Assembly: GCF_013122565.1 (NCBI RefSeq) | Contig: NZ_CP053258.1 | Strand: one strand, 5' to 3' | Source: Escherichia coli | GTDB taxonomy: Bacteria; Pseudomonadota; Gammaproteobacteria; Enterobacterales; Enterobacteriaceae | DNA length: 64,000 nt | Part shown: positions 2,841-55,241 of the stretch, piece after piece | Numbering within the stretch: the stretch's first letter is position 1 | Layout: every line of letters starts with the position of its first letter | Translations under genes and position numbers: made by a program | The notes under the pieces: generated by a model | Database searches by the model: none | Seen by the model: the letters and a program-made list of their open reading frames with translations, nothing else | Told to the model about the DNA's origin: nothing

Positions 2841-3326
2841 ATGCAAGTTTTTATCATGCGTCACGGCGACGCAGCCCTCGATGCCGCCAGTGATTCGGTT
2901 CGTCCTCTGACTACTAACGGTTGTGACGAATCTCGCCTGATGGCGAACTGGCTGAAAGGTCAAAAAGTGGAAATCGAACGCGTTCTGGTGAGCCCGTTCC
3001 TGCGAGCCGAGCAAACACTGGAAGAAGTAGGGGATTGTCTGAACCTGCCTTCCAGTGCAGAAGTTCTGCCGGAGTTAACGCCCTGCGGCGATGTTGGTCT
3101 GGTCAGTGCCTATTTACAGGCGTTGACCAATGAAGGTGTTGCTTCGGTACTGGTGATCTCCCACTTACCGTTAGTCGGGTATCTGGTTGCCGAGTTATGT
3201 CCGGGCGAAACGCCGCCTATGTTTACCACCTCAGCCATTGCCAGCGTAACGCTTGATGAAAGCGGAAACGGCACATTCAACTGGCAGATGAGCCCGTGTA
3301 ATCTGAAGATGGCAAAAGCTATCTGA
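2841..3326 (+). CDS. sixA: Phosphohistidine phosphatase SixA
   Basis: 161-aa ORF starting MQVFIMRHGDA (RHG histidine phosphatase motif). Confidence 0.9.
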   Translation: MQVFIMRHGDAALDAASDSVRPLTTNGCDESRLMANWLKGQKVEIERVLVSPFLRAEQTLEEVGDCLNLPSSAEVLPELTPCGDVGLVSAYLQALTNEGVASVLVISHLPLVGYLVAELCPGETPPMFTTSAIASVTLDESGNGTFNWQMSPCNLKMAKAI

Positions 3327-3977
3327 AGCTATAGAAATATGCCCGGTGAGATCACGTCATCGGGCATCTCCTTTCGTTCCTCTTGGCTGTATTCACACAT
3401 TTTCCCATTGATTAGGCGATTATTTTTGTGGAGCTATATTTCATATTTATATGAATGGCAGGTTTTTCCGGGAATGACATATCGTGTGGCGGAGGGTTAT
3501 TTAAGGAATGCAATGACATTTATTAGAGGAGCCTGTAACAATAGGCACACGTAAATAAAATTAAAAAGGAGTTGTGTCTTGATTTATATTATATATTGTT
3601 TTTCATTAATTATCCGCAGAAAAAAACAGAAATCGCATTTTTTTGTTGTTGCTTTCTTATTACCCACTTTGTAATGTGGCCCATATGAATTTAACCGTTA
3701 TGCAATAATTACGTTCTGTATTCATAGGGAATTCCTCAAAAAACATTATCCATAGTGATATTTTAAGTTTTACTTAAAATCATTGTTAGTAAAACTAATT
3801 TGAATTCACCGTTCAAAACTCCCACTATCGCCGCACACCAAAGAATATCATCTTATGCAATCTTTTGCGGGAAGCAATGACGCATATTCGATGGTCATCT
3901 CTAAGCCGCTCACTTCAATATTAATCTGAGGTTTTCCGGCGCTTATAATTTAATTATTTATGGTTTAAGGACAAATA

Positions 3978-4544
3978 ATGAGTAAGTTTGTTAAAACTGC
4001 TATTGCAGCGGTGATGGTAATGGGTGCGTTCGCGTCAACTTCTTCCATCGCTGCCGGTAACAACGGTACCGCGCGTTTCTACGGCACCATCGAAGATTCC
4101 CCGTGCTCCATCGTGCCTGACGACCACAAACTGGAAGTTGATATGGGCGATATCGGTTCTGAAACACTGAAAGGCAGTAAATCAACCACCCCGAAAGAGT
4201 TCCAGATCCGCCTGCAGGACTGCGTGTTTGATACTCAGGCCAAGGCTTCGACTGTCTTCACCGGCACCATCTATACTGCGGTCGCCAACAGCAACAACTA
4301 CACCATTTTCAGCACCGAAACCGGTATGCCATTTGAGCATGTCAGCCTGGCGATTGGTGATGAACATGGCGCGGCATACAAAAGCGGTATGCCTATCGAA
4401 CAGGCGCTTACTATAGATTCCAGCACCACGAAAGGTAAACCTAACCAGACGCTGAACTTTAAAGCATGGCTGGTGGGTGAAAGTGAAATGCCGACCCTGG
4501 GGGCATTTGAAGCTAACACCACGTTCCAGATCACTTATCTCTGA
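3978..4544 (+). CDS. yfcV: Fimbrial major subunit of the Yfc chaperone-usher system
   Basis: 188-aa ORF with signal peptide and fimbrial-subunit features; first gene of a 7-gene chaperone-usher cluster; preceded by a 650-bp AT-rich region. Confidence 0.85.
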   Translation: MSKFVKTAIAAVMVMGAFASTSSIAAGNNGTARFYGTIEDSPCSIVPDDHKLEVDMGDIGSETLKGSKSTTPKEFQIRLQDCVFDTQAKASTVFTGTIYTAVANSNNYTIFSTETGMPFEHVSLAIGDEHGAAYKSGMPIEQALTIDSSTTKGKPNQTLNFKAWLVGESEMPTLGAFEANTTFQITYL

Positions 4545-4551
4545 TGTTTCA

Positions 4552-4581
4552 CCCCATGGCGGCAACGTCATGGGGTTTTTT
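4552..4581 (+). terminator. Intra-operon hairpin plus T-tract between yfcV and the usher gene
   Basis: CCCCATG-gcggcaacgt-CATGGGG followed by TTTTTT, just after the yfcV stop. Confidence 0.7.
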
Positions 4582-4613
4582 AATTGATTCTGACGAAATT
4601 ATAATAATCACGG

Positions 4614-7277
4614 ATGGATACGTGTATGCCAGACCATTCTCTTTTCCGTTTACGGGTGCTTCCCTGGTATATTGCGCTGGCAATATCCGGAAGCTATGCC
4701 AGTGCCTGGGCTGATGATGATATTCAGTTTGATTCCCGTTTTCTGGAATTAAAAGGCGACGCAAAAGTCGATCTGAAACGTTTTTCCAGTCAGGGCTATG
4801 TCGAGCCGGGTAAATATAATTTACAGGTTCAGGTAAATAAGCAGCCGCTCCCGGATGAGTACGATATTTTCTGGTATGCCTCTGAAAAAGATGCCGGTAA
4901 AAGTTATGCCTGCCTGACGCCCACGCTGCTCGCCCAGTTTGGTCTGAAAGAGGAGATTGTAAAAAATCTGCAATGGTCCCGCAACGGCGAATGCCTCGCG
5001 CCAGGTCAGCTGGAAGGGACAGAGATTAAGGCTGATTTAAGCCAGTCCGCGTTATTAATCTCCCTGCCACAGGCCTATCTGGAATACAGCGATATGGACT
5101 GGGACCCGCCTTCCCGCTGGGACGATGGTATTCCCGGCCTGATTGCTGACTACAGCATTAACGCCCAGACCCGCCACGATGAGCAGAGCGGCGATGACAG
5201 TAACGACATCAGCGGTAACGGCACGGTAGGGGTAAACCTCGGCCCGTGGCGTCTGCGCGCCGACTGGCAGACGGACTACCAGCATACCCGCAGCGACGAT
5301 GACGATGAATACAGCGACAGTGACGGCAACAGCACACAAAGAAACTGGGAGTGGAGCCGCTACTACGCCTGGCGCGCCCTGCCGTCATTAAAAGCCAAAC
5401 TTGCGCTCGGCGAAGATTACCTCAACTCCGATATTTTCGACGGCTTTAACTATGTCGGCGGCAGCGTCAGCACTGAAGACCAGATGTTACCGCCAAATAT
5501 GCGCGGCTACGCCCCCGATATTTCCGGGGTGGCGCACACCACGGCGAAAGTGACCGTCAGCCAGATGGGCCGCGTCATTTACGAAACCCAGGTTCCGGCG
5601 GGGCCGTTCCGCATTCAGGATTTGGGCGATTCCATCTCCGGTACGCTGCATGTGCGTATTGAAGAGCAGAACGGTCAGGTGCAGGAATATGATATCAGCA
5701 CCGCGTCGATGCCGTTCCTGACCCGTCAGGGCCAGGTGCGCTATAAAGTGATGATGGGCCGCCCGCAGGAGTGGGGGCACGATATTGCCGGCGGATTTTT
5801 CTCCGGCGGTGAAGCCTCCTGGGGGATTGCCAACGGCTGGTCGCTCTACGGCGGCGCGCTGGCGGATGAAAACTATCAGTCGGCGGCCATTGGCGTCGGG
5901 CGTGACCTGTCAATTCTTGGTGCGATGGCCTTTGACGTCACGCACTCACATGTCCGCCTGGATGACAACACTGCCTACGACAATCGTACCCTGGACGGTA
6001 ACTCGTTCCGCGTGAGCTATGCCAAAGACTTTGACGAACTCGACAGCCGCGTTACCTTCGCCGGATACCGCTTCTCTGAAAAAAACTTCATGACCATGAG
6101 CGAATATCTGGATGCGAAAGATGCGGACATGGTGCGCTCCGGCAACGATAAAGAGATGTACACGGTTACCTACAACCAGAACTTCCGGGATGCCGCGGTT
6201 TCTGTCTATCTCAACTACACCCACCGCACCTACTGGGACCGGCCGGAACAGACCAACTACAACGTGATGATGTCCCACTATTTCAATATGGGCAGCATCC
6301 GCAACATGAGCGTGTCCCTGACCGGTTACCGCTACGAATACGACAAAAGCACCGACAAAGGGATGTATATCTCGCTGAGTATGCCGTGGGGCGACAGCAG
6401 TACCGTCAGCTATAACGGCAACTACGGCAGCGGCTCAGACTCCAGCCAGGTCGGTTATTTCAGCCGTATCGACGATGCCTCGCATTACCAGATTAACGTC
6501 GGCACCAGCGAAAACCACGGCAGCGTGGATGGCTACTACAGCCATGACGGCTCGCTGGCGCAGGTGGATTTAAGTGCCAACTACCATGAAGGCGAGTATC
6601 AGTCTGCCGGGATTTCACTGCAGGGCGGCGCGACGCTGACCGCGCACGGCGGGGCGCTGCACCGCACGCAATCGCCCGGCGGGACACGTCTGCTGATTGA
6701 CGCTGACGGCGTGTCCGGCGTGCCGGTGGAAGGTAACGGTTCGCCGGTTTACACCAACATGTTTGGTAAAGCGGTCGTGGCGGATGTCAACAACTACTAC
6801 CGTAACCAGGCCTATATCGACCTGACTAAACTGCCGGAAAACGCCGAAGCCACCCAGTCGGTGGTGCAGGCCACGCTGACCGAGGGCGCGATTGGCTACC
6901 GCCAGTTTGCAGTGATCAGCGGGCAGAAAGCGATGGCGGTACTGCGCCTGAGCGACGGCAGCCATCCGCCGTTTGGTGCGGAAGTGAAAAACAGCGACGA
7001 GCAGCAGGTGGGGCTGGTTGACGATGACGGCAACGTCTATCTGGCCGGGGTGAAACCGGGCGAGCGGATGACGGTGTCGTGGAACGGTGAGACACACTGT
7101 GACATCGCGCTGCCGGACCCGTTACCGGCCGATCTGTTCAACGGCCTGTTGCTGCCCTGCCAGAACCGGGGTGCCGTCGCGCCTGCCACCTCGCCGGACG
7201 TCAAACCGGTGATTCAGGAGCAGACGCAGCAGGTGACACCAACGGAACCCCCGACTTCAATTTCAGTAAACCAGTAA
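4614..7277 (+). CDS. yfcU: Outer-membrane fimbrial usher, intact (true start may be the Met at 4626)
   Basis: 887-aa uninterrupted ORF with usher-like N-terminal signal and C-terminal domain. Confidence 0.85.
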   Translation: MDTCMPDHSLFRLRVLPWYIALAISGSYASAWADDDIQFDSRFLELKGDAKVDLKRFSSQGYVEPGKYNLQVQVNKQPLPDEYDIFWYASEKDAGKSYACLTPTLLAQFGLKEEIVKNLQWSRNGECLAPGQLEGTEIKADLSQSALLISLPQAYLEYSDMDWDPPSRWDDGIPGLIADYSINAQTRHDEQSGDDSNDISGNGTVGVNLGPWRLRADWQTDYQHTRSDDDDEYSDSDGNSTQRNWEWSRYYAWRALPSLKAKLALGEDYLNSDIFDGFNYVGGSVSTEDQMLPPNMRGYAPDISGVAHTTAKVTVSQMGRVIYETQVPAGPFRIQDLGDSISGTLHVRIEEQNGQVQEYDISTASMPFLTRQGQVRYKVMMGRPQEWGHDIAGGFFSGGEASWGIANGWSLYGGALADENYQSAAIGVGRDLSILGAMAFDVTHSHVRLDDNTAYDNRTLDGNSFRVSYAKDFDELDSRVTFAGYRFSEKNFMTMSEYLDAKDADMVRSGNDKEMYTVTYNQNFRDAAVSVYLNYTHRTYWDRPEQTNYNVMMSHYFNMGSIRNMSVSLTGYRYEYDKSTDKGMYISLSMPWGDSSTVSYNGNYGSGSDSSQVGYFSRIDDASHYQINVGTSENHGSVDGYYSHDGSLAQVDLSANYHEGEYQSAGISLQGGATLTAHGGALHRTQSPGGTRLLIDADGVSGVPVEGNGSPVYTNMFGKAVVADVNNYYRNQAYIDLTKLPENAEATQSVVQATLTEGAIGYRQFAVISGQKAMAVLRLSDGSHPPFGAEVKNSDEQQVGLVDDDGNVYLAGVKPGERMTVSWNGETHCDIALPDPLPADLFNGLLLPCQNRGAVAPATSPDVKPVIQEQTQQVTPTEPPTSISVNQ

Positions 7278-7296
7278 CGTGATTAAGGAATGATCC

Positions 7297-8040
7297 ATGT
7301 TTAATCTGACTAACACTGCAAAAACCGTTATCCCTGCGCTGGCGCTGCTGGCCAGTTTCTCCAGCCACGCCTCGGTGACACCCGACAGGACGCGGCTGGT
7401 GTTTAACGAAAGCGACAAATCCATCAGCGTCACGCTGCGCAATAATGACCCCAAACTGCCCTATCTGGCGCAGAGCTGGATAGAGGATGCAAAGGGCAAC
7501 AAAATCAGCTCGCCGCTGGCGGTGCTGCCGCCGGTACAGCGCATCGATGCGATGATGAACGGCCAGGTGAAGGTGCAGGGGCTGCCGGATATCAACAAAC
7601 TGCCAGCCGACCGCGAGAGCGTGTTCTACTTTAACGTGCGCGAGATCCCGCCGAAATCAAACAAACCGAACACGCTGCAGATTGCGCTGCAGACGCGCAT
7701 CAAGCTGTTCTGGCGACCGAAGGCGCTGGAAAACGTCAGCATGAAAAACCCGTGGCAGCACAAGGTGACGCTCACCCGCAACGGCCAGGATTTTACCGTC
7801 AATAACCCGACGCCGTACTACGTGATCATCAGCAACGCCAGCGCGAAAAAAGGCGGCAACCCGCCGGCGGGATTCACACCGCTGATGCTGGAGCCGAAAA
7901 CCTCCGCCCCGCTGAATGCGAAGATGGACAGCGTGCCGGTGCTGACCTATATCAACGACTACGGCGCGCGGATGCCGCTGTACTTCAAATGCACCGCCAA
8001 CAACTGCCAGGTGGATGAAGAGCAGAGCCGCAAAGGCTGA
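7297..8040 (+). CDS. yfcS: Periplasmic fimbrial chaperone (PapD-like)
   Basis: 247-aa ORF with signal peptide and pilus-chaperone N-terminal motif (RLVFNESDKSISVTLRNN). Confidence 0.85.
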   Translation: MFNLTNTAKTVIPALALLASFSSHASVTPDRTRLVFNESDKSISVTLRNNDPKLPYLAQSWIEDAKGNKISSPLAVLPPVQRIDAMMNGQVKVQGLPDINKLPADRESVFYFNVREIPPKSNKPNTLQIALQTRIKLFWRPKALENVSMKNPWQHKVTLTRNGQDFTVNNPTPYYVIISNASAKKGGNPPAGFTPLMLEPKTSAPLNAKMDSVPVLTYINDYGARMPLYFKCTANNCQVDEEQSRKG

Positions 8041-8055
8041 TGCCGGGAGGGACTT

Positions 8056-8553
8056 ATGAGTCACAAGTTTTTAGCGGGGGCGGGGTTGCTGGTATTCAGT
8101 CTCTGTAGTTTCCCGGTTATGGCTGGCAGTAAAACCGTAGAGTTAACTCTGCGCGTGTTAGTGGATGCGCCACCACCGTGCTCCGTGAAGGGCAGTGCGG
8201 TGGAATTTGGCAATGTGACGATCAACAAGATCGATGGCACGAATTACCGACAGGATGCGAAATACACCCTGAGCTGCGGCAATAAAGCCAGCGACGATTT
8301 ACAGATGCAGCTCAAAGGGAATACCGCCGTTATCAACGGAGAAACGGTCCTCAGTACGGATATTGCCGGCCTGGGTGTGCGGATAGAAAACGCTGCCGAT
8401 AATTCCCTGTTTGCGGTAGGTGAAAATACCTGGACGCCTTTTAACTATAACACTCAGCCACAGCTGAAAGCGGTGCTGGTAAAACAGAGCGGAGTGCAGT
8501 TAACGCCGTCGGAATTTAACGCCACTCTGACCATGGTGGTGGATTACCAATGA
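8056..8553 (+). CDS. yfcR: Fimbrial-like minor subunit
   Basis: 165-aa secreted protein ending in a typical fimbrial C-terminal strand (VVDYQ); overlaps next gene. Confidence 0.75.
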   Translation: MSHKFLAGAGLLVFSLCSFPVMAGSKTVELTLRVLVDAPPPCSVKGSAVEFGNVTINKIDGTNYRQDAKYTLSCGNKASDDLQMQLKGNTAVINGETVLSTDIAGLGVRIENAADNSLFAVGENTWTPFNYNTQPQLKAVLVKQSGVQLTPSEFNATLTMVVDYQ

Positions 8554-9038
8554 AAAGACTCACGCTGATTTTACTGTGCACCTGCTGGGGCACAGCCCAG
8601 GCCGCCGACGAGGACATCACATTTCATGGCACCCTGGCATCGCCGCCCGCCTGTAGCATCAGCGGCGGGAAAACCATTGAAGTGGAGTTTCGCGATCTCA
8701 TTATCGACAGCATTAACGGGAATTATGGCCGGCAGGAAGTTGTATATGAGCTTAGCTGCGAATCCGATGCCCGCGATCCTGGCTGGCAAATGTCCCTGAC
8801 GTGGACCGGCACGCCCACCAGCTACAACGATGCCGCCATCGAGACGGATGTGCCGGGCTTCGGGATTGAGCTTCAGCATGACGGACAGCGTTTTCTGCTC
8901 AACACGCCGCTAAACATTGACGCCACGGATTTCAGCAAGAAGCCGAAGCTGGAGGCCGTACCGGTAAAAGCGGCTGATGCGGTGCTGAGTGACACGACTT
9001 TTTCTGCTTACGCAACTTTACGGGTGGATTACCAATGA
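8550..9038 (+). CDS. yfcQ: Fimbrial-like minor subunit
   Basis: 162-aa ORF with signal peptide; C-terminal RVDYQ; 4-nt overlaps with both neighbours. Confidence 0.75.
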   Translation: MKRLTLILLCTCWGTAQAADEDITFHGTLASPPACSISGGKTIEVEFRDLIIDSINGNYGRQEVVYELSCESDARDPGWQMSLTWTGTPTSYNDAAIETDVPGFGIELQHDGQRFLLNTPLNIDATDFSKKPKLEAVPVKAADAVLSDTTFSAYATLRVDYQ

Positions 9039-9574
9039 AAATAGCACGCACTTATACGCCGGCTTACGCGCTGTTCGCGGGCCTGCTGCTGACCGCCAGC
9101 ACAGACACTTTCGCCATGGACAACAACCTGCATTTTTACGGCAACCTGCTGAGTAAATCCTGCACGCTGGTGGTGGACGGTACCAACCTGGCAGAAATTC
9201 ATTTCCCCACCGTCAGCAACCGGGATTTGATGGTCGCCGGGCAGTCCGCGCATCTGCCGGTTGTGTTTAAGCTGAAAGACTGCAAAGGGCCTGCGGGATA
9301 CAACGTCAAAGTCACGCTGAGCGGCACTGAAGACAGCGGTCAGCCGGGATTTCTGGCAATCGATGACACCTCCACCGCGCAGGGGGTGGGGATAGGGATG
9401 GAAACGCTTGACGGCAAGCGGGTGGATATTAACAACACCACCGGTGCGACCTTCGCGCTTATCAACGGTAACAATGACATTAATTTCAGGGCCTGGATCC
9501 AGGCGAAAAGCAGTCGGGATGTGACGATCGGTGAATTTACCGCCTCTTTAACTGCGACATTTGAGTACATTTAA
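9035..9574 (+). CDS. yfcP: Fimbrial-like subunit
   Basis: 179-aa ORF with signal peptide and fimbrial C-terminus (TATFEYI). Confidence 0.75.
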   Translation: MKIARTYTPAYALFAGLLLTASTDTFAMDNNLHFYGNLLSKSCTLVVDGTNLAEIHFPTVSNRDLMVAGQSAHLPVVFKLKDCKGPAGYNVKVTLSGTEDSGQPGFLAIDDTSTAQGVGIGMETLDGKRVDINNTTGATFALINGNNDINFRAWIQAKSSRDVTIGEFTASLTATFEYI

Positions 9575-10394
9575 AATGAAAATACTACGATGGTTGTTCG
9601 CTCTGGTCATGCTTATGTCTGCGACAGAAGCTCTGGCTGCCGGGCATAGCATCAAGCTTTACTACGGAATTAGCCATGATCTGCAGGCTATCACGGCTTT
9701 TAGCCTGAAAATCATGATGCCATCAGGGGTCTACGATGGAGAATATAAGAGTAGTAACTTTGCACACATAGGGGATTATCTGCAAAATATAAGCTGGAAT
9801 GGTCCGCCTCCTGCACCTTCAGTAAAGATGATAGACTACAAGCAAAAGCTCGATGAATCATTATGCCCGGGGCTACCTTCTGGGTGGCTCTGTGGGTCTC
9901 TTGAATTTGAAATTATTGTTTCTGCTGATATTGAATCTTTCTTTTCTTGCCCTTGGTTGGTTGTTATGAGTGATACCGTGACCTCTAGAGGTGTGGCTTA
10001 TAAGGGGCCGGACGGTTATGCCACACTTTGTCAAACTGTTTCTGTTCAACCTTATGATGTTTCATGGAATGAGAATTATGTCAGTAAGTCTAAACTGCTC
10101 ACTCTGCAATCGACGGGCGGTGTGGTTGAGAAAACGCTTTCAACGTATTTAATGAAAGATGGCAAATTGTGCGACAGTTCGCAGATGAATGAAGCCGGTG
10201 GTTACTGCCGCTGGGTTGCGCAGATGATAACTTTTACTGCAACGGGATGTGATAAGGCGGAAGTCACTGTCACGCCAAATCGACATCCTATAACGGACAA
10301 ACAATTACACGATATGGTCGTGCATGTTGATACCAGTAGTATGCAGCCAATCGATTCTACTTGCCGGTTCCAGTACATACTGAATGAGTTGTAG
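9561..10394 (+). CDS. yfcO: Putative fimbrial tip adhesin-like protein
   Basis: 277-aa cysteine-rich secreted ORF, last gene of the yfc cluster. Confidence 0.7.
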   Translation: MSTFKMKILRWLFALVMLMSATEALAAGHSIKLYYGISHDLQAITAFSLKIMMPSGVYDGEYKSSNFAHIGDYLQNISWNGPPPAPSVKMIDYKQKLDESLCPGLPSGWLCGSLEFEIIVSADIESFFSCPWLVVMSDTVTSRGVAYKGPDGYATLCQTVSVQPYDVSWNENYVSKSKLLTLQSTGGVVEKTLSTYLMKDGKLCDSSQMNEAGGYCRWVAQMITFTATGCDKAEVTVTPNRHPITDKQLHDMVVHVDTSSMQPIDSTCRFQYILNEL

Positions 10395-52166: not shown

Positions 52167-53384
52167 TTACAGCTGATGATAACCAGAAAGGAAACGCGCG
52201 AACTTGCTCAAAGACAGCTCGATATCATCGACACGCGGTAGCGTGACAATGCGGAAGTGATCCGGCCACGGCCAGTTGAATGCCGTCCCTTGCACCAACA
52301 GAACTTTTTCCTGCAACAGGAAATCCAACACCATTTTCTGATCGTCGTGAATGTTAAAGCGTTTGGCGTCGATTTTCGGGAACATATACAGCGCACCACG
52401 AGGTTTCACGCAGGAAACGCCCGGAATATCGTTGATCAATTCCCATGCGCGGTTACGCTGCTCATAAAGACGACCGCCAGGGGTAATAAATTCACTGATG
52501 CTCTGATAACCACCCAGCGCGGTCTGAATGGCGTGTTGCGCAGGAACGTTAGCACACAGGCGCATTGAAGCCAGCATTTCCAGACCTTCGATGTAGCCTT
52601 TGGCGTGTTTTTTCGGCCCGTTCAACACCATCCACCCCTGACGGAAGCCTGCAACGCGGTACGTTTTCGACAGGCCGTTAAAGGTAATGGTCAGCAGGTC
52701 AGGTGCCAACGGCGCAATTGAGTGATGCTCAGCGTCGTCGTAGAGAATTTTGTCATAAATTTCATCGGCGAAGATAATGAGATTATGCTGACGTGCAATC
52801 TCCACAATCTCCATTAAAAGCTCTTTGGAATATACCGCGCCGGTTGGGTTATTTGGGTTGATAATAACAATCCCACGCGTACGAGGCGTAATTTTAGCGC
52901 GAATATCATCGAGGTCCGGGAACCAGTCAGAGGATTCATCGCAAAGATAATGTACTGCTTTACCGCTGGAGAGCGAAACCGCCGCGGTCCATAGTGGGTA
53001 ATCAGGTGCAGGAACTAACATTTCGTCCCCGCTGTTCAGCAATGCCTGCATTGCCTGAACGATAAGCTCCGATACACCATTGCCGATGTAAATATCTTCC
53101 ACGGTAACATCACGCATGCCACGAGCCTGGTAGTGCTGCATGATGGCTTTACGCGCGGAGTAAAGCCCTTTGGAATCGCAATACCCTTGAGCGGTAGGCA
53201 GGTTGCGTATCACATCAACGAGGATTTCATCTGGCGCGTCAAAACCGAATGGGGCTGGGTTGCCGATGTTCAGTTTCAGTACCTTGTTACCTTCTTCTTC
53301 CAGGCGTTTTGCTTCTTTCAGCACCGGACCACGGATGTCATAACAGACATTCTCTAATTTGCTGGATTTTTCAATGGGGGACAT
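52167..53384 (-). CDS. alaA: Glutamate-pyruvate aminotransferase
   Basis: 405-aa PLP-dependent aminotransferase ORF MSPIEKSSKLENVCYDIRGP... Confidence 0.9.
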   Translation of the reverse strand: MSPIEKSSKLENVCYDIRGPVLKEAKRLEEEGNKVLKLNIGNPAPFGFDAPDEILVDVIRNLPTAQGYCDSKGLYSARKAIMQHYQARGMRDVTVEDIYIGNGVSELIVQAMQALLNSGDEMLVPAPDYPLWTAAVSLSSGKAVHYLCDESSDWFPDLDDIRAKITPRTRGIVIINPNNPTGAVYSKELLMEIVEIARQHNLIIFADEIYDKILYDDAEHHSIAPLAPDLLTITFNGLSKTYRVAGFRQGWMVLNGPKKHAKGYIEGLEMLASMRLCANVPAQHAIQTALGGYQSISEFITPGGRLYEQRNRAWELINDIPGVSCVKPRGALYMFPKIDAKRFNIHDDQKMVLDFLLQEKVLLVQGTAFNWPWPDHFRIVTLPRVDDIELSLSKFARFLSGYHQL

Positions 53385-54299
53385 GAATCTTGACCTTTTT
53401 TGCTGTTATCGCCACTCCCTGCCGTGGAAGTCAGCTTAGAACAATGTACTCCCCCAGGACGGTGTTTTGAAGGTCTGCAGAATAAGATTTTGCCAGAGGG
53501 GAAAGCTCGATTGTGCTGTTAATAACTTAATAATGGTAAAATAATGAGGTGTATATGCTTAATAAGTAATGTTATATAGTGAATTATTCTGATTGTTAAT
53601 TGTAAATGTGGTTTTTTTATCTGTAAGATAATTGTGTGAAAATGCCTCGTTTAAGAATTCACTACTGAATCGCGATGATGATATTTCCGCATTACGGAGA
53701 GTTTAACAGCGTGATGATTTCCGAGGTGTCGCAATGGGTTAAGGTGTGAAACTATTGTTAAGCGGAATTAATGAATGAGGATGATGCTAATTAATTATTA
53801 TTTAATATTCAAAAAGGTTTTGTTGTGCTTATTAATAATAGAAGATTACTTTGCCTAACATAACATAACTTTGCATCAGATAATTCGCAATGACCCTTAT
53901 AAATAAAAGGTTTTTGGGGTAAAATGCTCGGATAAATGACGGATCCCTGCTCTTGATGCCGCCTCACCATTGCTGTTTGTACGTGTTCGCGTATGACCAG
54001 CGATGCTGCACGAGAGTGGAACAAGGACTTACATTTACATTTATACAAACACGCGCATGTCATAAATAGAAAAGAGTGAGTAACTTAATAGATATGCGAT
54101 CCCTGAAGATATATTCTGTGGTCTACTTCAGGCATTATAACGGAACAATGTGAGTCGCTTTTTTAGTGCAACTCATATGCATTTTTACTTTCGTCCGGGT
54201 TCCGGATGAAACTGCCAGGGAGGCACATTACAAATGGAATTGCTTGTTTGTGTGTGCACAGCATTAACCAGCTCAGTATGAGCCGCCAGTAAGTGATAA

Positions 54300-55241
<942 letters not shown>

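What the first reader, a model, noticed from the sequence alone, without database searches (positions are those of the whole stretch)
3327..3977. 650-bp AT-rich region upstream of the fimbrial operon, with a short perfect inverted repeat
This is an unusually long, strongly AT-rich non-coding region for a compact chromosome, typical of H-NS-silenced cryptic fimbrial promoters. It contains a perfect 8-bp inverted repeat TTTTAAGT-ttt-ACTTAAAA (about 3755-3775) that could be a regulator site. I saw no flanking inverted repeats suggestive of an invertible phase switch.
Basis: seen in the sequence. Interest (0 to 1): 0.3.

Follow-up and report, generated by a model that had tools for sequence, protein, structure and literature searches.

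The report
Upstream control region of yfc fimbriae
This is the AT-rich spacer between sixA and yfcV that carries the promoter of the cryptic E. coli Yfc fimbrial operon; it is an ordinary, probably H-NS-silenced control region in a rare sequence variant, and the small inverted repeat in it is no more than chance would give.

Summary
Positions 3327-3977 are a 651-bp non-coding spacer between sixA and yfcV, the first gene of the seven-gene yfc fimbrial operon. Its GC is 34% against 52% for the window. It is chance-level (7-21% of shuffles) and lies in a stretch of baseline conservation.

For the K-12 counterpart, published work reports an H-NS-bound "promoter island" with RNA polymerase binding. 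Silencing of this allele is inferred from composition and position only, and no H-NS high-affinity motif is present.

Three things are new:
- This is a rare, deeply diverged allele, found in 13 of 5426 complete E. coli genomes and about 48% identical to K-12.
- Its part from 3419 to 3977 travels with the operon, because it also heads a paralogous operon between yoaB and yoaC in some strains.
- Across allele families only a few islands are conserved: TTGAAT-17-CACTAT (3800-3828), two complementary blocks (3837-3848 and 3884-3895) that could form a leader stem, and the 30 nt up to and including the ATG.

There is no invertible switch, no Dam/Lrp switch, and no regulator or recombinase gene. Interest is low.

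The parts
2841..3326 (+). sixA (phosphohistidine phosphatase), the upstream neighbour; its stop codon sets the left edge of the spacer
   Evidence: ORF. Annotated as sixA in the syntenic loci. 97-99% identical to E. coli.
3339..3367 (+). Hairpin just after sixA, terminator-like but without a clear U-run
   Evidence: 11-bp stem, -18.5 kcal/mol, z = -3.7, and 0 of 200 shuffles fold as well. The stem is kept in K-12 through changes on both arms: GCCCGGTGA/TCATCGGGC against GCCCAATGA/TCATTGGGC. The consensus terminator scan found none. It holds the only GATC of the spacer.
3368..3418 (.). Junction segment specific to this allele at the sixA locus
   Evidence: Homology to other Escherichia sixA loci ends at about 3367-3375. 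Homology to the yoaB-yoaC copy starts at 3419.
3419..3977 (+). Operon-associated AT-rich upstream region, which travels with the fimbrial genes
   Evidence: 93-98% identical to the region upstream of a paralogous seven-gene operon between yoaB and yoaC in strains ET201 and LHM10-1. GC is about 33%.
3760..3780 (.).
   Evidence: I8. Chance-level. Conservation between allele families is at baseline, 0.52-0.62. It lies at about -75 to -55 of the predicted start site (inference).
3785..3799 (+). Conserved AT-rich block GTTAGTAAAACTAAT just upstream of the candidate -35 (UP-element-like)
   Evidence: TTAGTAAA is kept in at least 6 of 7 allele representatives.
3800..3828 (+). Candidate core promoter: -35 TTGAAT (3800-3805), 17-nt spacer, -10 CACTAT (3823-3828)
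   Evidence: The hexamers and the exact 17-nt spacing are kept in all seven distinct Escherichia spacer sequences examined, while the spacer sequence varies. The same layout occurs in the Citrobacter FP75 (TTTACA-17-AATACT) and Enterobacter RIT418 (TTGATA-17-AATACT) homologous operons. It is a weak match to consensus and was not picked up by the generic scan. No transcript data exist.
3833..3837 (+). Predicted transcription start (A3835 is 7 nt after the -10)
   Evidence: Inference from the promoter geometry only.
3837..3848 (+). Conserved block ACCAAAGAATAT, the 5' arm of the candidate leader stem
   Evidence: Conservation. Pairing with 3884-3895.
3884..3895 (+). Conserved block ATATTCGATGGT, the 3' arm of the candidate leader stem
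   Evidence: 86.5% of cells paired against 24-38% when the partner is slid. Four pairs change on both sides. Covariation score is 0.194 against 0.109 in shuffles, reached by 0 of 500.
3944..3949 (+). Perfect TATAAT (TATATT in other alleles); a possible second, proximal promoter
   Evidence: Read from the sequence. TTATA is kept in at least 6 of 7 allele representatives. The -35 is poor (TTAATC). Not tested.
3951..3980 (+). Near-invariant translation initiation region, with Shine-Dalgarno AAGGA (3967-3971) and the ATG (3978-3980)
   Evidence: Kept in at least 6 of 7 allele representatives as one continuous run. Nearly identical in Pseudocitrobacter.
3978..4544 (+). yfcV-type major fimbrial subunit, the first gene of the seven-gene operon that runs to about 10394
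   Evidence: Pfam Fimbrial PF00419, E = 8e-15. Synteny with K-12 yfcV-yfcO. The last gene is a DUF2544 (YfcO) protein.

Best explanation
The region is the cis-regulatory region of the yfc chaperone-usher fimbrial operon, in a rare allele. It has three parts.

- The first 40-90 bp belong to sixA: a terminator-like hairpin and a short junction segment.
- The remaining roughly 560 bp (3419-3977) belong to the fimbrial gene cluster and move with it.
- Within that part, transcription most likely starts from a weak sigma-70-type promoter (TTGAAT-17-CACTAT, 3800-3828). This would give a leader of about 143 nt whose first bases can pair with a conserved block about 50 nt downstream to form a 5' stem-loop.

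The roughly 380 bp of very AT-rich, fast-evolving DNA upstream of the promoter, together with the AT-rich leader, most likely serves as a platform for H-NS-type silencing. That would keep the operon cryptic until counter-silencers act. The 9-bp inverted repeat is most likely a by-product of the AT-rich composition.

What is shown: the anatomy, the composition, the synteny, the conservation pattern, and the sharing of 3419-3977 between two loci. What is inferred: H-NS binding to this allele, the promoter assignment, the start site, and the function of the stem.
For: - Locus identity and synteny with K-12 fadJ-sixA-yfcVUSRQPO-smrB.
- GC is 34% against 52%, the lowest of the window. TpA steps are 9.4 per 100 nt against 4.1.
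- Published data for the K-12 spacer: an H-NS-interacting promoter island (PMC3661553); an RpoD holoenzyme SELEX peak flagged HNS (PMC3946193); an RpoS holoenzyme peak (PMC5493296).
- Published expression data: yfcV rises on Rho inhibition by bicyclomycin (PMC10980228), on TosR overproduction in CFT073 (PMC5956150) and on BolA overproduction (PMC4337573). Yfc is described as core-associated and cryptic (PMC3559732).
- All allele families, and the homologous operons in Citrobacter, Enterobacter and Klebsiella, have a long AT-rich gene-free upstream region of 27-35% GC. It is 648-686 bp in the Escherichia spacers measured and about 1 kb in Citrobacter and Klebsiella.
- The conserved islands coincide with a -35/17/-10 layout, a start region, a complementary block pair and the ribosome-binding region.
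- Positions 3419-3977 are shared at 93-98% with the yoaB-yoaC paralogous operon.
Against: - There are no expression, start-site or binding data for this allele. Its sequence is not alignable to the K-12 spacer over 3368-3942, so the K-12 data transfer only by position and composition.
- There is no match to the H-NS high-affinity motif tCGATAAATT at up to 2 mismatches, where 2.1 were expected in shuffles.
- The candidate -10 is weak (3 of 6), and the generic promoter scan found no more sites than in shuffles (3 against 3.3).
- The promoter that Shimada et al. proposed for K-12 (TTGAAA-17-TATAGT, about 390 nt upstream of the ATG) lies elsewhere and is not conserved in this allele.
- The leader of this allele does not fold better than shuffles (z = -0.93), and its outer stem pairs are broken.
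Confidence: 0.72

Rival explanations
1. The inverted repeat at 3760-3780, or the overlapping palindrome at 3766-3796, is the operator of a dedicated dimeric regulator. That regulator would switch the operon on or off from a position at about -75 to -55 of the promoter.
For: The arms are 9 nt perfect with a 3-nt loop. The right end of the overlapping palindrome runs into the conserved block GTTAGTAAA. The position would suit a class I activator (inference).
Against: The repeat is expected by chance in 7-21% of shuffles. The left arm and the repeat as a whole are not kept in other allele families, where conservation is at baseline. No regulator gene lies in or next to the operon.
Confidence: 0.08
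2. The region is a phase-variation switch. It would be either an invertible promoter element like fimS or a Dam/Lrp methylation switch like pap.
For: Many fimbrial operons are phase-variable (established knowledge). Short AT-only inverted repeats flank segments of 135 and 239 nt (I5 and I9).
Against: - No recombinase gene lies in the locus.
- The flanking repeats are 8-11 nt and made of A and T only.
- Every full-length match at the sixA locus aligned as one collinear piece, as did the ET201 copy at yoaB-yoaC. The other yoaB-yoaC copies were seen only in part, and the LHM10-1 copy is split by an IS1. The listed K-12-type hits were collinear too, apart from one IS1 insertion.
- There is no GATC in 3419-3977, and only one in the whole spacer, inside the sixA hairpin.
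- No PapI- or PapB-like ORF is present.
Confidence: 0.03
3. The main promoter is not the conserved TTGAAT-17-CACTAT. It would be either the proximal TATAAT (3944-3949, giving a leader of about 22 nt) or one of the distal promoter-like sites, as proposed for K-12. In that case the conserved blocks at 3837-3895 act as DNA sites, for example for a repressor, not as RNA.
For: There is a perfect TATAAT inside the near-invariant proximal block. The K-12 SELEX-based prediction is distal. The generic scan lists TTAAAA-18-TATATT at 3561-3590 and ATGACA-18-AACAAT at 3513-3542. The K-12 spacer is a 'promoter island' with many competing sites.
Against: The -35 for the proximal -10 is poor. The distal sites are not conserved between allele families. 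The fixed 17-nt spacing with a variable spacer is specific to 3800-3828.
Confidence: 0.25
4. Most of the spacer (3419-3780) is functionless. It would be decayed remains of former genes, or filler carried along with the operon, and its AT-richness would reflect mutation bias and not selection for silencing.
For: The distal part is hypervariable, at 45-57% identity between allele families. It has no conserved blocks and no ORF with a family match.
Against: Length (648-686 bp) and AT content (27.5-35% GC) are kept across allele families that are otherwise unalignable. They are also kept in other genera at other chromosomal sites. The K-12 counterpart binds H-NS and RNA polymerase.
Confidence: 0.12

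Closest known systems
sixA-yfcV spacer of E. coli K-12, listed as an H-NS-interacting 'promoter island' (Panyukov and Ozoline 2013, PMC3661553) and as an RpoD/RpoS holoenzyme SELEX target (Shimada et al. 2014 and 2017, PMC3946193 and PMC5493296)
   Same: It has the same flanking genes and orientation, nearly the same length (680 against 651 bp) and the same AT-richness (32% against 34% GC). It shares the TTGAAT-17-CACTAT layout, the block pair and the 30-nt translation initiation region.
   Different: Overall identity is about 48%, and blastn finds no alignment over 3368-3942. The distal promoter proposed for K-12 is absent here. The operon behind it is only about 75-85% identical.
H-NS-repressed cryptic chaperone-usher fimbrial operons of E. 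coli K-12 (Korea et al. 2010, as cited in PMC3559732)
   Same: It is an AT-rich upstream region in front of a fimbrial operon that is silent in laboratory culture. Yfc is named among the cryptic but functional types.
   Different: Repression of this allele was not measured. I could not read the primary paper in the library, so its content is taken from the citing review.
fimS invertible element of type 1 fimbriae
   Same: It is a regulatory region upstream of a major fimbrial subunit gene.
   Different: There are no 9-bp GC-containing inverted repeats flanking a roughly 300-bp promoter segment, no fimB/fimE-type recombinase, and only one orientation in all copies seen.
pap regulatory region (Dam/Lrp/PapI switch)
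   Same: It is a long AT-rich upstream region in front of a major fimbrial subunit gene.
   Different: There is no pair of GATC sites and no papI/papB-like gene.

Membership tests
H-NS (xenogeneic) silenced promoter region | AT content well above the genome average over several hundred bp | tested here: met
   GC is 34.4% against 52.4%. It is the lowest-GC 651-nt stretch of the window, and TpA steps are about 2.3-fold enriched.
H-NS (xenogeneic) silenced promoter region | Association with a variable or horizontally exchanged gene cluster | tested here: met
   The operon and its upstream region occur at two chromosomal sites. They exist as deeply diverged alleles between near-identical flanks.
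H-NS (xenogeneic) silenced promoter region | Presence of a high-affinity nucleation motif (tCGATAAATT; motif recalled from Lang et al. 2007, not checked in the library) | tested here: not met
   There are 0 matches at up to 2 mismatches, where 2.1 +/- 1.5 were expected in shuffles. The motif is not obligatory for H-NS binding (established knowledge).
H-NS (xenogeneic) silenced promoter region | H-NS occupancy in vivo and de-repression in an hns mutant | not testable with these tools
   Reported only for the K-12 spacer (PMC3661553, PMC3946193), which is not alignable to this allele over most of its length.
Sigma-70 promoter | -35 and -10 hexamers 16-18 bp apart, with A at position 2 and T at position 6 of the -10 | tested here: met
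   TTGAAT-17-CACTAT at 3800-3828. The layout is kept in seven distinct Escherichia spacer sequences and two other genera. It is weak: 4 of 6 and 3 of 6.
Sigma-70 promoter | A mapped transcription start | not testable with these tools
   No transcript data for this allele. No start-site report for yfcV was found in the library.
fim-type invertible switch | Inverted repeats flanking a promoter-bearing segment, plus adjacent site-specific recombinase gene(s) | tested here: not met
   Only AT-only repeats of 8-11 nt are present. There is no recombinase between fadJ and prmB.
fim-type invertible switch | Both orientations found among genomes | tested here: not met
   All full-length matches of this allele aligned as one collinear piece, at the sixA locus and in the ET201 yoaB-yoaC copy. 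The other yoaB-yoaC copies were seen only in part.
pap-type Dam/Lrp methylation switch | Two GATC sites about 100 bp apart in the regulatory region | tested here: not met
   The spacer has a single GATC (3349-3352), inside the sixA hairpin, and none in 3419-3977.
pap-type Dam/Lrp methylation switch | PapI- and PapB-type regulator genes upstream of the major subunit gene | tested here: not met
   No ORF of the spacer matches any Pfam family at E <= 1.
Known RNA families (Rfam 15) | A covariance-model match at or near the gathering score | tested here: not met
   Only two far sub-threshold matches: 14.5 and 22.3 bits against cut-offs of 65 and 39.
Intrinsic terminator (for sixA) | A GC-rich hairpin followed by a U-run | tested here: inconclusive
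   A stable, covarying hairpin is present at 3339-3367, but it is followed by CTCCTTTCGTTCC and not a clean U-run. The scan reports none.

The most novel reading that the evidence does not exclude
The yfc-type operons may carry a portable control module made of two parts.

- The first is a silencer of about 650 bp that is constrained in length and composition but free in sequence.
- The second is a conserved core: a weak promoter followed by a 5'-terminal leader stem-loop (3837-3848 paired with 3884-3895) that sets mRNA stability or translation of the major subunit.

The whole module would be exchanged together with the structural genes between the sixA and yoaB-yoaC loci by recombination. That would make the leader stem a new cis-regulatory RNA element of this fimbrial family.
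Probability: 0.2. Interest if true: 0.4.

Novelty: new member of a known kind. Interest (0 to 1): 0.2.

Why it matters
yfcV is widely used as a marker gene for uropathogenic E. coli, yet how the operon is switched on is unknown. This analysis shows three things about the upstream region. It is hypervariable except for a small promoter-and-leader core. It exists in at least five deeply diverged forms. It moves with the operon between two chromosomal sites. Together these give a short list of bases to mutate (3785-3828, 3837-3848, 3884-3895, 3944-3980). They also warn that regulatory data from K-12 cannot be transferred base by base to other strains. Beyond that, the region is an ordinary example of an AT-rich, probably H-NS-silenced fimbrial promoter.

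Tried and rejected
- **Significance of the inverted repeat.** Dinucleotide shuffles show it is not beyond chance.
- **Second copy inside the window.** None was found.
- **Rfam scan at a permissive threshold.** Nothing credible.
- **Coding remnants.** No ORF of the spacer has a Pfam match. The 31-aa ORF at 3579-3674 is cut by a stop codon in the MB53 and ET201 copies (reading). The 24-codon upstream ORF at 3855-3929 has no Shine-Dalgarno sequence, and its ATG is missing in K-12.
- **H-NS high-affinity motif.** Absent.
- **AA/TT periodicity for intrinsic curvature.** No clear 10-11 bp peak.
- **Generic promoter and terminator scan.** No enrichment over shuffles.
- **Plasmid origin.** The only hits were chromosome-type yfcV matches, several in chromosome-sized records filed in the plasmid collection.
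- **Source species for this allele.** Among 100,044 species representatives, the closest major subunit is only 74% identical, in E. whittamii, so the source is unknown.
- **Leader folding, single sequence.** Not better than shuffles (z = -0.93).
- **Slipped-strand tracts.** The A7 and T7 runs at 3620-3626 and 3638-3644 do not vary in length among relatives. The A7/A6 difference is a substitution.
- **Primary paper on H-NS repression of cryptic K-12 fimbriae.** It was not in the library, so it is cited only through PMC3559732.

Full report
**1. What is there**

The window begins with fadJ (494-2638) and sixA (2841-3326). After the 651-bp spacer at 3327-3977 come seven genes:
- a fimbrial major subunit (3978-4544; Pfam Fimbrial, E = 8e-15);
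- an usher (4614-7277);
- a chaperone (7297-8040);
- three minor subunits;
- a DUF2544/YfcO-type adhesin (9561-10394).

smrB and prmB follow. This is the order of E. coli K-12 b2341 to b2330 read on the opposite strand, that is fadJ-sixA-yfcVUSRQPO-smrB-prmB. fadJ-sixA is 96-98.7% identical to 5425 of 5426 complete E. coli genomes, so the window is E. coli and the spacer is the sixA-yfcV intergenic region.

**2. The observation**

- The spacer has 34.4% GC against 52.4% for the window, and it contains the lowest-GC 651-nt stretch of the 64 kb.
- The inverted repeat is real: ATTTTAAGT (3760-3768), ttt, ACTTAAAAT (3772-3780).
- In 1000 dinucleotide-preserving shuffles, 20.8% contain a perfect repeat with arms of at least 8 nt and 6.9% one with arms of at least 9 nt. 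The repeat is what AT-rich DNA gives by chance.
- Rfam finds nothing.
- No ORF of the spacer has a Pfam match. The 31-aa ORF behind a good Shine-Dalgarno sequence (3579-3674) is cut by a stop codon in the nearest relatives.

**3. A rare, deeply diverged allele**

- The spacer matches only 13 of 5426 complete E. coli genomes, at 92-95.5% identity, even with sensitive blastn.
- The K-12 spacer family is found in 3529 genomes.
- Against K-12 the flanks are 97% identical up to 3367. Nothing aligns from 3368 to 3942, and the operon is about 65-89% identical in 200-nt bins.
- I collected spacers from other strains and Escherichia species and found at least five families: window/MB53; K-12/PSS-13/MOD1-EC7003; O157/E1V33/SCU-316 with E. 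whittamii; E69; and O102/EC21Z-151. They are only 45-57% identical to each other.
- All of them are 648-686 bp long with 27.5-35% GC.
- Homologous operons in Citrobacter, Enterobacter and Klebsiella are also AT-rich upstream (28-30% GC over the last 600 nt). In Citrobacter and Klebsiella, which sit at other chromosomal sites, the gene-free upstream region is about 1 kb.
- So length and composition are kept, while sequence is not.

**4. The upstream region travels with the operon**

Ten of the 13 genomes had a second match, and I traced it.
- It lies upstream of a paralogous seven-gene operon inserted between yoaB and yoaC, which are neighbours in K-12.
- Strain ET201 has the window-type upstream region only at that site.
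- From window position 3419 to the ATG, the two loci are nearly identical.
- Homology continues to about 9589, the end of the sixth gene, and the adhesin gene differs.
- The same major-subunit protein accession (WP_040062845.1) is annotated at the sixA locus of MB53 and at the yoaB locus of ET201.
- In LHM10-1 an IS1 sits in the yoaB copy of the upstream region.

The spacer is therefore a mosaic. Positions 3327-3367 hold the sixA hairpin (-18.5 kcal/mol, z = -3.7), whose stem is kept in K-12 by changes on both arms. Positions 3368-3418 are a locus-specific junction. Positions 3419-3977 are operon-associated. No plasmid copy was found.

**5. What is conserved, and the likely mechanism**

Across allele families conservation is at baseline (0.4-0.6) except for four islands.

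- **First island.** GTTAGTAAA-TTAA-TTGnAT at 3785-3805, followed after exactly 17 variable bases by CAnnAT at 3823-3828.
  - In the window this reads TTGAAT-17-CACTAT.
  - The same geometry holds in all seven distinct Escherichia spacer sequences examined.
  - It also holds in Citrobacter FP75 (TTTACA-17-AATACT) and Enterobacter RIT418 (TTGATA-17-AATACT).
  - Conserved hexamers at fixed spacing around a free spacer are the signature of a sigma-70-type promoter, here a weak one. I infer a start at about 3835 and a leader of about 143 nt.
- **Second and third islands.** ACCAAAGAATAT (3837-3848) and ATATTCGATGGT (3884-3895) are complementary.
  - On nine sequences the stem is paired in 86.5% of cells against 24-38% when the partner is slid.
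  - Four pairs change on both sides.
  - The covariation score is 0.194 against 0.109 in shuffles, reached by 0 of 500.
  - The sample is small, the structure was derived from these same sequences, and the window's own leader folds no better than shuffles (z = -0.93). This is a lead, not a finding.
  - If it is real, it would be a stem-loop at the very 5' end of the transcript. Such structures often protect mRNAs from decay (established knowledge).
- **Fourth island.** Positions 3943-3980 hold a TATAAT, the Shine-Dalgarno AAGGA and the ATG, and are almost invariant.

**6. Comparison with what is known**

For the K-12 spacer the literature reports:
- an H-NS-interacting "promoter island" (PMC3661553);
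- an RpoD-holoenzyme SELEX peak flagged HNS, with a proposed TTGAAA-17-TATAGT (PMC3946193);
- an RpoS-holoenzyme peak (PMC5493296);
- a rise of yfcV after Rho inhibition (PMC10980228), after TosR overproduction in CFT073 (PMC5956150) and after BolA overproduction (PMC4337573).

Yfc is described as core-associated and cryptic, and many cryptic fimbriae of commensal strains as H-NS-repressed (PMC3559732). They transfer to this allele only by position and composition, because the proposed K-12 promoter is not conserved here and no H-NS high-affinity motif is present.

Switch models fail their defining tests:
- There is no recombinase.
- Only one orientation was seen: every full-length match, at the sixA locus and in the ET201 yoaB-yoaC copy, aligned as one collinear piece.
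- There is no GATC in 3419-3977.
- There is no PapI/PapB-like ORF.

**7. Verdict**

This is a real but ordinary feature: the AT-rich control region of the yfc fimbrial operon, probably silenced by H-NS, in a rare allele. The inverted repeat is incidental. The by-products are more interesting than the original finding, but none is surprising for a fimbrial locus. They are the allele diversity with conserved length, the sharing of the upstream region between two chromosomal sites, and the promoter-plus-leader-stem core.

Scores: interest 0.2; novelty, new member of a known kind.

Noticed in passing
L014 8890-16353 (E. coli ET201) and L015 (LHM10-1); homologous to window 3419-9589: Some E. coli carry a second yfc-like seven-gene fimbrial operon inserted between yoaB and yoaC. 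Its upstream region and first six genes are 93-98% identical to the window's sixA-locus operon, but its adhesin gene is different. I found no mention of this locus in the fimbrial survey PMC3559732, and no paper in the library held the terms yoaB, yoaC and fimbrial together.
   Followed up: partly
window 3327-3977 and its counterparts in L003, L004, L005, L011, L017-L021: The sixA-yfcV spacer exists in at least five allele families that are only 45-57% identical to each other. All are 648-686 bp long with 27.5-35% GC, and they sit between flanks that are 97-99% identical. Length and composition look constrained, while sequence does not.
   Followed up: partly
window 3884-3895 and 4086-4097: The conserved leader block ATATTCGATGGT is also 92% complementary to ACCATCGAAGAT inside yfcV (the GTIED codons), 190 nt downstream (I2). 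This could be an alternative long-range pairing, or a coincidence with a conserved protein motif.
   Followed up: no
leader apical region of other alleles (alignment A5, columns 52-58); absent from window 3870-3880: Four of seven allele families have a single GATC (GGATC or AGATC) in the variable loop of the candidate leader stem. The window allele and the O102 type lack it.
   Followed up: no
window 53226-54251: This is the only other stretch of the window with GC below 38%. It is the 919-bp spacer between alaA (52167-53384, minus strand) and lrhA (54303-55241), another long AT-rich regulatory spacer. The genes were named from their translations and my own knowledge.
   Followed up: partly
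window 5100-7200: The usher gene reaches 60-67% GC in 200-nt windows. That is well above the window mean of 52% and contrasts sharply with its 34% GC upstream region.
   Followed up: no
L015 9148-9845 and hit H39 (NZ_CP068041.1): IS1 insertions occur inside the upstream region in two places: the yoaB-yoaC copy of LHM10-1, and the K-12-type sixA-yfcV spacer of strain XJW9B277.
   Followed up: no
L008 and L009: Contigs filed under a Collinsella MAG and under Stappia sp. BW2 carry E. coli-type yfcV sequence. The Collinsella contig also carries the end of sixA. These are most likely contamination in those assemblies.
   Followed up: no
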